Below, one piece after another: positions 57,096-59,566 of a DNA stretch of 64,000 nt (its first letter is position 1; each line of letters begins with the position of its first letter). The notes beneath the pieces are model-generated. The model ran no database searches. It was not told where the DNA came from and worked only from the letters and a program-made list of their open reading frames with translations. The DNA comes from Candidatus Enterousia sp. (GTDB lineage: Bacteria > Pseudomonadota > Alphaproteobacteria > Rs-D84). Position numbers and translations under genes: made by a program. The stretch lies in contig JAZURV010000004.1 of the NCBI GenBank assembly GCA_045606425.1, positions 120,987 to 184,986 on the forward strand, given 5' to 3'.

Positions 57096-57785
57096 ATGAA
57101 AAAGACCATATTCTTTTGGCTGTATTTTGTTGCGTCAATTATACTGGCGGTGTATTTTTCTGTCCGCGTAATAACCAGTATGATGGGCCGCGGGCCGGTA
57201 TCTTATGTTCATCACATTTCCATATCTGGCGATTCAAAAAACACAGATTTTGAACAAATCCGCATGGCAATCGGGATAAACAGTGGAACCAATATAAAAT
57301 CTGTGGATTTGCGCCAAATAAACAACCGTATTTCGCATATTCCGGGGATAAAAAATTCATCTGTACGGCGCCTGGCAAATGGCGACATTATAATAAAAAC
57401 ACAACAGTATAAGGTTGCTGCGCAATGGAGTGACGGCGAATTATTCTATCCATTATCTGTTGATGGCGTAAAAATAAACACCCCGTCAAATATACGCAAT
57501 GAAAATACCATTGTTTTTCGTGGCGAAATCCCCCAGGATTTATCTAAAATCATAAACGATGTATCTGCACTGTCCAAAGACATAGATTATATGACAATAA
57601 TCGAAAACAGACGCTGGAATATACGCACACATGGGGGCATAACAATATATTTGCCTGAAAACAATCCATCGGTTGCCATAAACAAAATCAACAGATTAAA
57701 CCAAACGCATAAATTATTATCGCGCGATATTGAAATTATCGATATGCGTGACGATGCCAGAATTTTGGTAAAAACCAGAAAATGA
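57096..57785 (+). CDS. ftsQ: Cell division protein FtsQ
   Basis: 229 aa; single N-terminal TM, POTRA-like region. It lies immediately upstream of the ftsA-like gene with a 4-nt overlap. Confidence 0.75.
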   Translation: MKKTIFFWLYFVASIILAVYFSVRVITSMMGRGPVSYVHHISISGDSKNTDFEQIRMAIGINSGTNIKSVDLRQINNRISHIPGIKNSSVRRLANGDIIIKTQQYKVAAQWSDGELFYPLSVDGVKINTPSNIRNENTIVFRGEIPQDLSKIINDVSALSKDIDYMTIIENRRWNIRTHGGITIYLPENNPSVAINKINRLNQTHKLLSRDIEIIDMRDDARILVKTRK

Positions 57786-59566
57786 AACTGTCTAATTCGT
57801 CTTTTTTATGCCTGGATATCGGAACATATGGTGTCCGTGGTCTGGCGCACATGGTCAGGGACGCGCGCATTGTTCAATCTGCGATGCATTTTGTAAAAAA
57901 TCCAAACACATTTTTTGCATTAAAAAGCGTTATCGACGAATTGGAAAACCAATTAAAAACGCGATTTGATTCTGCGTTTATCACTGGTAATTTTGGCGTT
58001 GCAGATTTCAAAACTATATCCGATACAATTTCATGGAATGACGAACACAAAATAACTGAATTGGATTTGAAACATCAGATTGCAAAAATATCAGTCCCAG
58101 ATGATTTCTATGCGATGCATATCATACCTTTATTTTATGGTACACCAAACATAAAAAACATCAGCAACAGCCCCATTGGTCACATCGACACACAATTGAA
58201 ATCTATATTCAGTGTAATTTCATACGAAACAGAAACAACGGCATATATATCAGATATTCTGCGCCGTTCACATTTACAGTGCAGCGGATTCCTGGACCCC
58301 AGTTTTTTACAGAACGCCGTCTATCGTCGCACAAATGAACGCGTTATGTTTGTTGATTTGGGCAATGAATTCACAACTGTTTCTATATGGACAATGCGCG
58401 GGCCGTTGTATTTCAACAAAATAAAATTTGGCGGGCGCGATATAACAAATGCTATTTCACACGGATTGAATATAAAACCAAATGATGCAGACACACTTAA
58501 AATATCGGTTGGTTCTGCAATTCCAAATGAAATGGACAGATTTACCCCGGCGGACGCATCTGAAAAATTTGCATCTTTTTCCCGTGCAGATATAAATGAC
58601 ATTTTTATACCAACCCTGAAAGAACTGATTAAAAATATTTATGAACAATCTGGGAAATACATAAATCAGTATAAACCGGAAAAAATTATCCTGACTGGCG
58701 GTGGGGCTACTATAAATAATATAAACACAGTTTTTGAGGGCGTGTTTGATTTACCGGTTGAAAACCTGGGCGACAGCGCCAGTGTAAATGCGTTGTCTGA
58801 ATATATCTGGAATACATACCTGCCGGAACGAAACGATTATATTCAAAACCAGGAAAGAATTAAAAACATAATTGGAAAAATCACTGCTTTTTGCAAACCG
58901 AAAAAAAAGACAAAAAAACAAAAATTCGTACCAATCATGCCCAGTTCGCTGTGTTTCAACATGAATGACATGACAACATATACCATGTTTGCCAGCGCAG
59001 GTATTTCAACAATTCATGTTGATATCATGGACGGTTTTTATGTCGATAAAATGGCAGGCAGTATTTCTGAATTGGCAAACATCAGAACAAAAACAAAATC
59101 ACACCTGCATGTACATTTAATGACAGAAAGCCCGTCTGTCTGGGCAACCGATGCAATAAACGCAGGCGCCGATACAATCATACTTTCAACAAACACATCG
59201 GGTGTAAAGAACGCCATTAAAATCGTTCATGATGCTGGCAAACGCGTTGGTATCGCATTAAACCCAGATTCAAATGTTGAAATTTTAATACCAATTTTAA
59301 AAGAAATTGACGAAGTTATGGTTATGGGTGTCAAACCTGGGGCTGCCGGCCAGAAATTTAATGATGATGTTTTGCAAAAAATCAAAACATTGGATTACAC
59401 ACGAAAAAAACACTGTTTGAAATATTTAATCAGTGTTGATGGCGGAATAAATCCAGACACCGCAAAGTTGTGCTGGAACGCTGGTGCCGATTTGTTGGTC
59501 AGTGGTTCTTACCTGGCACACGCCAACGATTTCCCATTGGCAGTGCAAAGTTTATTGAATCACTAG
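57782..59566 (+). CDS. ftsA: FtsA-like cell-division ATPase fused in-frame to ribulose-phosphate 3-epimerase (Rpe)
   Basis: The N-terminal ~370 aa is actin-like FtsA (CLDIGTYGVRGL; MFVDLGNEFTTVSIW...GGRDITNAISHG; KIILTGGGATINNINTV). A Lys-rich linker is encoded by the A8/A7/A5 tracts at 58901-58924. The C-terminal ~215 aa is a complete Rpe (PSSLC..HVDIMDGFYV, HLHVHLM, MGVKPGAAGQKF, SVDGGI, GADLLVSGS). Confidence 0.75.
   Translation: MKLSNSSFLCLDIGTYGVRGLAHMVRDARIVQSAMHFVKNPNTFFALKSVIDELENQLKTRFDSAFITGNFGVADFKTISDTISWNDEHKITELDLKHQIAKISVPDDFYAMHIIPLFYGTPNIKNISNSPIGHIDTQLKSIFSVISYETETTAYISDILRRSHLQCSGFLDPSFLQNAVYRRTNERVMFVDLGNEFTTVSIWTMRGPLYFNKIKFGGRDITNAISHGLNIKPNDADTLKISVGSAIPNEMDRFTPADASEKFASFSRADINDIFIPTLKELIKNIYEQSGKYINQYKPEKIILTGGGATINNINTVFEGVFDLPVENLGDSASVNALSEYIWNTYLPERNDYIQNQERIKNIIGKITAFCKPKKKTKKQKFVPIMPSSLCFNMNDMTTYTMFASAGISTIHVDIMDGFYVDKMAGSISELANIRTKTKSHLHVHLMTESPSVWATDAINAGADTIILSTNTSGVKNAIKIVHDAGKRVGIALNPDSNVEILIPILKEIDEVMVMGVKPGAAGQKFNDDVLQKIKTLDYTRKKHCLKYLISVDGGINPDTAKLCWNAGADLLVSGSYLAHANDFPLAVQSLLNH

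What the first reader, a model, noticed from the sequence alone, without database searches (positions are those of the whole stretch)
57782..59566. In-frame FtsA-Rpe fusion with the junction in slippage-prone poly-A tracts
One ORF encodes an FtsA actin-like domain, a Lys-rich linker encoded by A8 (58901-58908), A7 (58912-58918) and A5 (58920-58924), and then a complete Rpe with catalytic motifs. The FtsA membrane-targeting helix is replaced by Rpe, and ftsZ does not follow.

It could be a genuine fusion, an artefactual merge of ftsA and rpe by a homopolymer indel, or a phase-variable slippage site. An ATG at 58937-58939 could start Rpe independently (MPSSLC...), but it has no obvious SD.
Basis: partly seen in the sequence, partly recalled or inferred. 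Interest (0 to 1): 0.7.

Follow-up and report, generated by a model that had tools for sequence, protein, structure and literature searches.

The report
Conserved FtsA–Rpe fusion protein
A whole lineage of tiny-genome gut Alphaproteobacteria (Rs-D84 / Candidatus Enterousia) makes its cell-division membrane anchor FtsA as one polypeptide with the sugar-phosphate enzyme ribulose-phosphate 3-epimerase; the fusion is real, old and under selection, and the poly-A runs at the junction are only lysine codons.

Summary
Window 57782-59566 (+) is one 594-aa ORF with an FtsA domain (1-345), a helix plus Lys-rich linker (346-384) and a complete Rpe barrel (385-594). A8, A7 and A5 and the ATG at 58937 are where stated.

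It is a genuine, ancient fusion, not an indel artefact or a slippage switch.
- All 73 complete orthologs from species genomes (44-83% identity) hold one uninterrupted 588-597-aa ORF. About 20 more 50%-identity clusters go down to 31%.
- The A-runs are not conserved (longest run 2-8, Arg codons in GC-richer relatives), but the positive charge is.
- Met386 is Leu or Ala in 41 of 75 orthologs, so there is no conserved internal start.
- Both domains have dN/dS of 0.02-0.08. Rpe metal, catalytic and phosphate motifs are nearly invariant.

The claim that Rpe replaces the FtsA membrane helix is not supported. A cationic amphipathic helix (356-371) sits before the basic patch, so the membrane-targeting element appears to be retained internally.

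ftsZ lies neither in the 64-kb window nor within 8-10 kb in the related loci whose contigs reach that far.

Two AT-rich sister lineages have lost the Rpe catalytic residues but keep the domain (dN/dS about 0.2 for the one pair available). This hints at a non-catalytic role in division.

No paper describes the fusion. Databases call it only "ribulose-phosphate 3-epimerase".

The parts
57096..57785 (+). ftsQ (229 aa; POTRA plus FtsQ/DivIB C-terminal domain). Its stop overlaps the fusion start (ATGA).
   Evidence: Pfam PF08478 and PF03799. The same ATGA overlap joins ftsQ and ftsA in E. coli K-12. ftsQ precedes the fusion in L076, L078, L080 and L082.
57782..59566 (+). Whole ftsA::rpe fusion ORF (594 aa plus stop).
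   Evidence: Full-length orthologs.
57782..58816 (+). FtsA actin-like core, residues 1-345. Phosphate-1 motif DIGT at 12-15, variant phosphate-2 motif DLGNEFT at 192-198, adenosine motif GGGA at 306-309.
   Evidence: PF14450. TIGR01174 aligns over residues 80-343 but scores below its cutoff. PDB FtsA 7q6g, E 1.5e-10. Foldseek FtsA TM 0.66-0.76 against PilM 0.55-0.59. Motif table.
58820..58894 (+). Long helix, residues 347-371. Its C-terminal part (about 356-371) is a cationic amphipathic helix, the presumed retained FtsA membrane-targeting sequence.
   Evidence: AlphaFold2 helix 347-369. Hydrophobic at 360 (95%), 364 (80%), 367 (99%), 370 (92%) and 371 (97%); basic at 356, 359, 366 and 369. 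Hydrophobic moment: family mean 0.65, and the top window of the whole protein in 30 of 90 sequences. The window's own value is only 0.50; E. coli FtsA MTS is 0.69.
58895..58924 (+). Polybasic tether, residues 372-381 (KPKKKTKKQK), encoded by the A8, A7 and A5 runs. It is the only disordered segment of the model.
   Evidence: pLDDT below 50 for 371-379. Net charge of 371-384 is +4 to +9 in 82 of 90 sequences, mostly +5 to +8. The longest A-run in orthologs is 2-8, with Arg codons replacing Lys codons.
58925..59563 (+). Complete ribulose-phosphate 3-epimerase (beta/alpha)8 barrel, residues 382-594. Motifs: PSS 387-389, HVDIMDG 412-418, HVHLM 443-447, PGAAGQ 519-524, VDGG 552-555, SGS 574-576.
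   Evidence: PF00834 and NF004076. Residue-level alignment to 2FLI. Foldseek TM 0.93, rmsd 1.5 A. Motifs nearly invariant in the 74 species.
58937..58939 (+). In-frame ATG (Met386) proposed as an internal start. It is not conserved.
   Evidence: Residue 386 is L in 39, M in 34 and A in 2 orthologs. The upstream sequence AAATTCGTACCAATC has no SD-like motif.
59552..59986 (-). tsaE, convergent, overlapping the fusion's 3' end by 15 nt. It marks the end of the ftsQ-ftsA::rpe unit, and no ftsZ follows.
   Evidence: PF02367, E 3.7e-32. Same arrangement in L076, L078 and L082.

Best explanation
This is a genuine, vertically inherited gene fusion. It characterises the reduced-genome gut Alphaproteobacteria of GTDB order Rs-D84 (Candidatus Enterousia and relatives).

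One polypeptide carries four parts:
1. A divergent but complete FtsA actin-like core.
2. FtsA's cationic amphipathic membrane-targeting helix, now internal.
3. A short, disordered polybasic tether of nearly fixed length.
4. A full Rpe TIM barrel that appears catalytically competent.

Shown:
- A single ORF in every complete ortholog.
- Strong purifying selection on both domains.
- Conservation of the Rpe metal, catalytic and phosphate-binding residues.
- Conservation of linker length and charge, but not of the A-runs.
- No conserved internal start.
- Linkage to ftsQ, with a start/stop overlap (ATGA in the window).

Inferred:
- The protein is made together with FtsQ.
- The helix plus basic patch hold it on the inner face of the cytoplasmic membrane, where the FtsA part does its usual job of tethering FtsZ and recruiting the divisome.
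- The Rpe part interconverts ribulose-5-P and xylulose-5-P at the membrane. It is probably the Rpe of these roughly 0.9-Mb genomes.

The poly-A tracts are a by-product of Lys (AAA/AAG) codons in a 39%-GC genome. They are not a regulatory device.
For: - **Architecture:**
- **Conservation of the fusion:** more than 120 clusters at 70-100% identity, all 586-595 aa. 74 species genomes, 73 of them complete single ORFs of 588-597 aa. About 20 further 50%-identity clusters down to 31% identity, followed only by ordinary Rpe proteins of about 215 aa at 134 bits or less.
- **Junction:** 42-43 residues between W343 and P387 in 71 of 74 orthologs. Mean of 7 K+R per 20 residues, while the longest A-run ranges from 2 to 8.
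- **Selection:** dN/dS 0.02-0.08 for both domains in unsaturated pairs.
- **Rpe motifs:** H-x-D-x-M-D-G in all 74 complete sequences, HVHLM in 73 of 75, DGG in all 74. They align to the catalytic residues of 2FLI.
- **Membrane helix:**
- **Synteny:** ftsQ, fusion, then tsaE on the opposite strand in L076, L078 and L082/L083. In L080 ftsQ precedes the fusion. In L081 tsaE lies about 2 kb downstream.
- **Lineage context:** PMC12306168 reports genomes of 0.75-1.0 Mb and the non-oxidative pentose-phosphate genes in most Rs-D84 genomes. L009 and L031 are MAGs from that paper.
Against: - Nothing here measures enzyme activity, membrane binding or FtsZ binding.
- The FtsA part scores below the strict NCBIfam equivalog cutoff (78.6 against 175.85 bits), and its phosphate-2 loop is D[LF]G[AN]E[FY]T rather than DxGGGT.
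- The Rpe part is below the TIGR01163 equivalog cutoff (152 against 212.6 bits), and it has YVDK where canonical Rpe has FVPN. Exact substrate specificity is therefore inferred.
- The window's own helix is only moderately amphipathic (moment 0.50, rank about 50 of 581).
- Some deep lineages (P0139, P0142) show no clear amphipathic segment.
- I could not determine whether a second ftsA, a second rpe, or ftsZ lies elsewhere in these genomes.
Confidence: 0.85

Rival explanations
1. Functional co-option. The Rpe domain is a working part of the divisome and not merely a co-translated enzyme. It could act as an oligomerising module that clusters membrane-bound FtsA, or as a sugar-phosphate sensor coupling division to carbon supply. 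This is compatible with the best explanation and extends it.
For: - The fusion has never come apart in any complete ortholog across 31-100% identity.
- Linker length is nearly fixed.
- Two AT-rich sister lineages with the same synteny have lost the Rpe metal, catalytic and phosphate residues but keep a full-length domain. P0135/P0270 show HVD to YTT, VDGG to VCGD and PGAAGQ to SGAEIE. P0141 shows HVD to NID, HVHLM to SINLM and VDGG to IYDI.
- In P0135 against P0270 the dead domain is 81% identical with dN/dS about 0.20, which is more constrained than the FtsA part (73%, about 0.36).
- From general knowledge, solved Rpe proteins crystallise as homo-oligomers; several PDB entries hold 6 or 12 chains.
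Against: - In the main clade every catalytic residue is conserved, as expected of a plain enzyme.
- The dead-domain evidence rests on three proteins from very AT-rich genomes (24-26% GC), where dN/dS estimates are rough and slow decay is possible.
- No direct evidence for oligomerisation or sensing.
- No published link between Rpe and division was found.
Confidence: 0.3
2. Programmed or phase-variable slippage at the A8 and A7 tracts toggles between full-length FtsA-Rpe and a roughly 394-aa FtsA that ends just after its membrane helix.
For: - A8 and A7 tracts are present here.
- A one-base gain or loss in either tract gives a product of 393-395 aa that stops within about 20 codons.
- A-runs of 8 or more are rare in the window: 4 in 64 kb.
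Against: - The tracts are not conserved. The longest run is 2-4 in 12 of the 75 junctions compared and 5-6 in 40, with differing positions, and Arg codons carry the charge in GC-richer relatives.
- None of the 73 complete genome orthologs, and none of the 120 best clusters, is split at the linker.
- The one apparent split is a scaffold-gap artefact elsewhere in the gene.
- Runs of 7 or more A or T are common in this genome: 65 in 64 kb.
Confidence: 0.04
3. Assembly or sequencing artefact: a homopolymer indel merged separate ftsA and rpe genes.
For: Only the presence of homopolymers at the junction.
Against: - Independent assemblies from many studies and hosts give the same single ORF, including orthologs with no homopolymer at the junction.
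- The linker residues are under selection for charge and length.
- No stand-alone close homolog of either half exists in 1.84 billion representatives, apart from contig-end fragments.
Confidence: 0.01
4. Rpe is also made separately from the internal ATG at 58937.
For: - An in-frame ATG lies one residue before the conserved Pro-Ser of Rpe strand beta1.
- One database gene call (P0131) starts there.
Against: - Met386 is Leu or Ala in 41 of 75 orthologs.
- No SD-like sequence lies upstream.
- P0131 is a gene-calling consequence of a scaffold gap.
Confidence: 0.05
5. The N-terminal domain is not FtsA but another actin-like ATPase, such as PilM.
For: - PilM_2 and MreB Pfam models also match residues 184-331 (E about 1e-7).
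- The TIGR01174 FtsA equivalog cutoff is not reached.
Against: - The best sequence and fold matches are FtsA.
- The gene overlaps ftsQ exactly as ftsA does in E. coli.
- It carries an FtsA-type amphipathic helix after the core.
- No pilN/O/P/Q genes are adjacent.
Confidence: 0.04

Closest known systems
FtsA (bacterial actin-like divisome protein, e.g. E. coli FtsA; PDB 7Q6D, 4A2A, 1E4G)
   Same: Same fold, including the 1C-type insertion (TM 0.66-0.76). Same position immediately after ftsQ, with an overlapping ATGA. An amphipathic helix lies after the core.
   Different: About 15-18% identity to solved FtsA proteins. The phosphate-2 loop is not GGGT. The amphipathic helix is internal, closer to the core than in E. 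coli (about 15 residues against 35), and is followed by a polybasic tether and a 210-residue enzyme. ftsZ is not adjacent.
Ribulose-phosphate 3-epimerase (Rpe; e.g. S. pyogenes 2FLI, human 3OVP)
   Same: TIM barrel at rmsd 1.5 A. His/Asp/His/Asp metal ligands, the catalytic Asp pair and the phosphate loops are all present.
   Different: No free N-terminus: strand beta1 starts directly after the basic tether. The beta2-alpha2 loop has YVDK in place of FVPN. It scores below the strict equivalog cutoff. In two sister lineages the active site is destroyed.
Metabolic enzymes that act on the divisome as separate proteins (UgtP in B. subtilis, OpgH in E. coli, GdhZ and KidO in Caulobacter). From general knowledge, not tested here.
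   Same: A central-metabolism enzyme physically associated with the FtsZ/FtsA machinery. This is the obvious functional analogy if the Rpe domain influences division.
   Different: Those are free proteins that bind FtsZ conditionally. Here the enzyme is covalently and permanently joined to FtsA, and no regulatory effect has been shown.
Engineered FtsA variants whose membrane-targeting sequence was swapped for the MinD helix or a transmembrane segment (Pichoff and Lutkenhaus 2005; Shiomi and Margolin 2008). From general knowledge.
   Same: They show that FtsA needs a membrane anchor but tolerates changes at its C-terminal end.
   Different: Those are laboratory constructs. This is a natural protein with an extra folded domain downstream of the anchor.

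Membership tests
FtsA | Profile match to FtsA family models | tested here: inconclusive
   Pfam PF14450 passes (52.9 bits against a cutoff of 31.8). The NCBIfam equivalog TIGR01174 does not (78.6 against 175.85).
FtsA | Actin-like two-lobed fold with the FtsA-type subdomain arrangement | tested here: met
   AlphaFold2 pLDDT about 90 over residues 1-345. The top 19 Foldseek PDB hits are all FtsA, TM 0.66-0.76 over 354-389 columns; PilM scores 0.55-0.59.
FtsA | Gene immediately downstream of ftsQ | tested here: met
   ATGA overlap with ftsQ. ftsQ also precedes the fusion in L076, L078, L080 and L082. E. coli has the same overlap.
FtsA | ftsZ immediately downstream | tested here: not met
   tsaE and uvrB follow on the opposite strand. 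No FtsZ signal in the window or in the flanks held for the 83 related loci: up to 10 kb, less where a contig ends or a shorter flank was fetched. Adjacency is typical of ftsA but does not define it.
FtsA | Amphipathic membrane-targeting helix after the core | tested here: met
   Conserved hydrophobic stripe with interleaved basic residues. Family mean moment 0.65 against 0.69 for E. coli. Predicted helical. It is internal rather than terminal, and membrane binding itself was not tested.
FtsA | ATP-binding motifs (phosphate 1, phosphate 2, adenosine) | tested here: inconclusive
   DIGT and GGG[AS] are conserved. Phosphate 2 is D[LF]G[AN]E[FY]T instead of DxGGGT.
FtsA | Binds the FtsZ C-terminal peptide and recruits late divisome proteins | not testable with these tools
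   Needs biochemistry or genetics.
Ribulose-phosphate 3-epimerase (Rpe) | Profile match | tested here: met
   PF00834, E 3e-42. NF004076 subfamily scores 178.6 against a cutoff of 165. The strict equivalog TIGR01163 scores 152.2 against 212.6 and is not reached.
Ribulose-phosphate 3-epimerase (Rpe) | (beta/alpha)8 barrel superposable on solved Rpe | tested here: met
   2FLI: TM 0.93, rmsd 1.5 A, 31% identity.
Ribulose-phosphate 3-epimerase (Rpe) | Metal ligands His/Asp/His/Asp, the catalytic Asp pair, and phosphate-binding Gly loops | tested here: met
   HVDIMDG, HVHLM, VDGG, PGAAGQ and SGS align to 2FLI and are nearly invariant in 74 species. They are not met in the sister lineages P0135/P0270 and P0141.
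Ribulose-phosphate 3-epimerase (Rpe) | Ru5P to Xu5P epimerase activity and specificity | not testable with these tools
   Needs an enzyme assay. The FVPN to YVDK loop change leaves specificity open.

The most novel reading that the evidence does not exclude
The Rpe barrel has been recruited as a built-in module of the divisome. Tethered next to the membrane helix of FtsA, it either oligomerises and so clusters FtsA at the membrane, or reports pentose-phosphate availability to the division machinery. That role persists even where the enzyme's active site has been lost (P0135/P0270 and P0141). If so, this would be a natural, covalent link between central carbon metabolism and bacterial cytokinesis, and the first FtsA known to function with an internal membrane anchor and a large C-terminal cargo.
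Probability: 0.3. Interest if true: 0.8.

Novelty: new variant of a known kind. Interest (0 to 1): 0.6.

Why it matters
FtsA is the conserved membrane anchor of the bacterial Z-ring. Its membrane-targeting helix is normally the extreme C-terminus.

Here an entire order of uncultured, partner-dependent gut bacteria has kept an FtsA whose anchor is internal and which carries a central-metabolism enzyme. This holds over divergence down to about 31% identity.

Three consequences follow:
- **Annotation.** These genes are named only "ribulose-phosphate 3-epimerase" in the records that carry a name. Automated surveys could therefore score Rs-D84 genomes as lacking ftsA.
- **FtsA tolerance.** FtsA can tolerate, and may exploit, a 23-kDa domain downstream of its anchor.
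- **A natural test case.** The fusion offers a direct way to ask how metabolism is coupled to division. The lineages in which the enzyme is catalytically dead but retained make that question sharper.

Tried and rejected
- **Locating ftsZ, or a second ftsA or rpe, elsewhere in these genomes.** This was not possible. Only local absence is shown.
- **Stand-alone Rpe P0131 (209 aa, starting at Met386).** It looked like a natural split gene, but it is an artefact of a run of N and duplicated sequence inside the ftsA part of scaffold L075.
- **Searching with the dead-Rpe protein P0135.** This returned only 3 proteins, so that lineage is thinly sampled.
- **Foldseek against AFDB50.** The library was unavailable, so I could not see what UniProt calls this architecture.
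- **Supplements of the Rs-D84 genome paper.** None are held.
- **Literature searches.** FtsA plus Rpe plus fusion, and FtsA plus Rs-D84, found nothing. Rpe plus cell division plus moonlighting returned 7 papers, none of which appears relevant from its title and abstract.
- **PilM or MreB identity for the N-terminal domain.** Considered and rejected.
- **Second structure prediction for the dead-Rpe protein.** Not run, because the alignment would force a barrel regardless.
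Full report
**1. The observation**

The ORF list and the raw sequence confirm a single 594-codon ORF at 57782-59566 on the + strand. A8 lies at 58901-58908, A7 at 58912-58918 and A5 at 58920-58924. An in-frame ATG sits at 58937-58939 (codon 386).

Profile searches place an FtsA domain and a ribulose-phosphate 3-epimerase domain in the same protein:
- Pfam FtsA PF14450, residues 190-327, E 6e-14.
- Pfam Ribul_P_3_epim PF00834, residues 398-578, E 3e-42.
- NCBIfam Rpe subfamily NF004076, 178.6 bits against a cutoff of 165, spanning residues 385-589.
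- The FtsA equivalog TIGR01174 aligns over 80-343 but scores below its cutoff.

Against solved structures, residues 1-380 match FtsA best (7Q6G, E 1.5e-10). Residues 381-594 match Rpe (2FLI, E 2e-31).

The gene upstream (57096-57785) is ftsQ, and its stop overlaps the fusion's start in ATGA. E. coli ftsQ and ftsA are joined in exactly the same way.

Downstream lie tsaE, convergent and overlapping by 15 nt, and then uvrB. So ftsZ does not follow.

**2. Is the fusion real?**

Yes. Three searches agree.
- A search of 5.8 billion proteins returned more than 120 clusters at 70-100% identity. All are 586-595 aa and carry both domains.
- A scan of one genome per GTDB species returned 74 genomes encoding it, at 44-83% identity. 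They are rumen, hindgut and termite-gut MAGs named Candidatus Enterousia, Alphaproteobacteria bacterium and similar. All 73 copies that are not cut by a contig end are one uninterrupted ORF of 588-597 aa.
- An exhaustive HMMER search of 1.84 billion cluster representatives found about 20 more full-length fusion clusters, down to 31% identity. After those come only ordinary stand-alone Rpe proteins of about 215 aa at 134 bits or less.

The only apparent stand-alone Rpe that is closely related is P0131, which starts at Met386. It comes from scaffold L075, where a run of N with duplicated flanking sequence interrupts the ftsA part. The frame runs straight through that scaffold's linker.

dN/dS in unsaturated pairs is 0.03-0.08 for the FtsA part and 0.02-0.06 for the Rpe part.

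**3. The junction**

Aligned orthologs show a junction of almost invariant length: 42-43 residues between W343 and P387 in 71 of 74.

The segment 371-384 is always strongly basic. Its net charge is mostly +5 to +8, and there are on average 7 K+R per 20 residues.

The DNA does not conserve the A-runs. The longest run is 8 in 4 sequences, 7 in 19, 5-6 in 40 and only 2-4 in 12. Relatives with higher GC use Arg codons, for example RRRRARPR in L044. The A-tracts are therefore the trace of Lys codons in a 39%-GC genome.

A one-base slip in either tract would give a 393-395-aa FtsA without Rpe. Nothing indicates that this is used: no ortholog is split there, and A or T runs of 7 or more are common in the window, with 65 in 64 kb.

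Codon 386 is Leu in 39, Met in 34 and Ala in 2 orthologs. No Shine-Dalgarno-like sequence precedes it. An independent Rpe start is therefore not a conserved feature.

**4. The membrane-targeting helix is kept, not replaced**

The evidence for a retained helix:
- Just before the basic patch the alignment shows a hydrophobic stripe at positions 360 (W or I, 95% hydrophobic), 364 (80%), 367 (99%), 370 (92%) and 371 (F, 97%).
- Basic residues lie at 356, 359, 366 and 369. This is the pattern of a cationic amphipathic helix.
- The best 14-residue hydrophobic moment in this region averages 0.65 over 90 fusion proteins. It is the top window of the entire protein in 30 of them and within the top ten in 53.
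- The verified E. coli FtsA membrane-targeting sequence VGSWIKRLNSWLRK gives 0.69.
- Some orthologs even resemble it in sequence, for example NWLRKIF in L024 against NSWLRKEF in E. coli.
- The AlphaFold2 model (mean pLDDT 88.4) has a helix over 347-369. Residues 371-379 are the only disordered stretch, and the barrel starts at 385.

Caveats:
- The window's own segment is less amphipathic than the family mean (0.50).
- A few deep lineages (P0139, P0142) lack a clear amphipathic segment.
- Membrane binding is inferred, not shown.

**5. The two domains**

*FtsA.* Foldseek places residues 1-345 on FtsA structures from S. aureus, Vibrio, E. coli and Thermotoga at TM 0.66-0.76. PilM scores 0.55-0.59. 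The phosphate-1 (DIGT) and adenosine (GGGA) motifs are conserved. The phosphate-2 loop is D[LF]G[AN]E[FY]T rather than DxGGGT.

*Rpe.* The barrel superposes on 2FLI at 1.5 A, TM 0.93. The motifs HVDIMDG, HVHLM, PGAAGQ, VDGG and SGS align to the metal, catalytic and phosphate-binding positions of 2FLI and are nearly invariant in the 74 species. The canonical FVPN loop is YVDK in this clade. The strict Rpe equivalog cutoff is not reached. Exact specificity therefore remains an inference.

**6. Lineage and context**

Several of the loci's source records name Candidatus Enterousia. NCBI places that genus in Alphaproteobacteria incertae sedis.

PMC12306168 assigns it to GTDB order Rs-D84. The paper describes:
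- Genomes of 0.75-1.0 Mb.
- No amino-acid, nucleotide or lipid biosynthesis, no TCA cycle and no respiration.
- Missing upper-glycolysis genes.
- The non-oxidative pentose-phosphate genes, except transaldolase, in most genomes.
- A probably partner-dependent lifestyle.

Two of that paper's MAGs (JBKSMS and JBKSMR) are loci L009 and L031.

The rest of the window is ordinary housekeeping DNA. It includes ftsK, secDF, mutL, greA, lptF/G, serS, bipA, ruvA and mnmE.

There is no ftsZ, no second ftsA and no second rpe in the window. None lies in the flanks held for the related loci either; these reach up to 10 kb and are shorter where a contig ends or a smaller flank was fetched.

The local gene order holds in the divergent lineages. 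A MacB/FtsX-type ABC transporter lies on the opposite strand, then small ORFs, ftsQ, the fusion and tsaE in L076, L078 and L082/L083. L080 keeps the order through the fusion. L081 has tsaE about 2 kb downstream and lpxK and lpxC upstream. A single origin of the fusion is the simplest reading.

**7. An unexpected extra: dead-Rpe lineages**

Two very AT-rich sister lineages keep the full-length architecture but have lost the Rpe active site. They are P0135/P0270 (loci L076-L079, 24-26% GC) and P0141 (L080, 24% GC).
- P0135, in a gapless alignment: HVD to YTT, PGAAGQ to SGAEIE, VDGG to VCGD, SGS to CSS.
- P0141: HVD to NID, HVHLM to SINLM, VDGG to IYDI.

P0135 and P0270 are 75% identical overall. 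The dead Rpe-like part is the better conserved half: 81% identity and dN/dS about 0.20, against 73% and about 0.36 for the FtsA part.

This suggests the barrel has a role that does not need catalysis. The sample is small and the composition is extreme, so I treat this as a lead.

**8. Mechanism proposed**

*Shown:*
- One polypeptide.
- Both domains under selection.
- A conserved amphipathic helix followed by a basic tether of fixed length.
- An intact Rpe active site in the main clade.

*Inferred:*
- The protein is translated together with FtsQ.
- It binds the inner leaflet of the membrane through the helix and the polybasic tether.
- It works as FtsA at the Z-ring.
- It carries the cell's Rpe activity at the membrane.

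*Possible (about 0.3):* the Rpe barrel also acts in division, either by oligomerising or by sensing pentose phosphates.

**9. Novelty**

No paper in the library joins FtsA with Rpe or with Rs-D84. The 7 papers returned for Rpe, cell division and moonlighting do not appear relevant from their titles and abstracts.

The records that carry a name call the protein only "ribulose-phosphate 3-epimerase".

Both domains belong to well-known families, so this is a new variant (a new architecture) of known kinds. It is not a new kind of system.

It is more interesting than a routine fusion for four reasons: its age, the internal membrane anchor, the invariant tether, and the retained pseudo-enzyme in sister lineages.

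Noticed in passing
L076/L077 10001-11770; L078 3001-4773; L080 4568-6295: Sister lineages (24-26% GC) keep the full-length FtsA-Rpe architecture but have lost the Rpe metal, catalytic and phosphate-binding residues. In P0135/P0270 the FtsA phosphate-1 and phosphate-2 motifs are degenerate as well. The dead Rpe-like half is still the better conserved half (81% identity, dN/dS about 0.2).
   Followed up: partly
window 37596-42547 (-): Three tandem paralogous AMP-binding (acyl/aryl-CoA ligase-type) genes of 538, 526 and 532 aa. This is a notable expansion for a genome of about 0.9 Mb.
   Followed up: no
window 52908-57043: A gene block next to ftsQ recurs in the fusion lineages checked (L076, L080, L082). 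It comprises a 126-aa signal-peptide or lipoprotein-like ORF (56663-57043, +), a 107-aa ORF (56263-56586, -), a 442-aa lipoprotein-like ORF with no Pfam match (54898-56226, -), a MacB_PCD/FtsX permease (53630-54886, -) and an ABC ATPase (52908-53624, -). Whether it is functionally linked to division (FtsEX-like or Lol-like) is unknown.
   Followed up: partly
L075 2591-2982: A scaffold join (run of N with duplicated flanking sequence) inside the ftsA part makes gene callers emit a 306-aa 'FtsA' and a 209-aa 'Rpe' (P0131). This spurious stand-alone Rpe now sits in public protein collections.
   Followed up: yes
L063, L071: Contigs that carry the alphaproteobacterial fusion (45% identity) are labelled 'uncultured Muribaculaceae bacterium' in their records. 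They are probably mis-binned or mislabelled.
   Followed up: no
window 59552-59566: The 3' end of the fusion gene and the convergent tsaE gene overlap by 15 nt, which fits a very compact genome.
   Followed up: no
window 20921-28661: A cluster of glycosyltransferase genes (GT2, GT61, GT92 and RgpF-like among the ORFs scanned) lies in a region where GC drops to 0.33-0.37, against about 0.40 elsewhere. It may be a variable surface-polysaccharide locus. ORFs beyond 24.9 kb were not scanned.
   Followed up: no
window 58994-59080 (residues 405-433): The canonical Rpe loop motif MDGxFVPN is MDGFYVDK in this whole clade (FVNN, YVEN or YTDK in deeper lineages). It lies in the beta2-alpha2 loop, which may border the active site (my recollection, not checked here), so substrate specificity could differ from textbook Rpe.
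   Followed up: partly
L081 3821-5769: In the GC-rich deep lineage (P0146, NCBI GCA_031263295.1), lpxK and lpxC lie just upstream of the fusion. lpxC normally follows ftsZ in the gammaproteobacterial dcw cluster, so this may be a remnant of an older ftsA-ftsZ-lpxC order.
   Followed up: no
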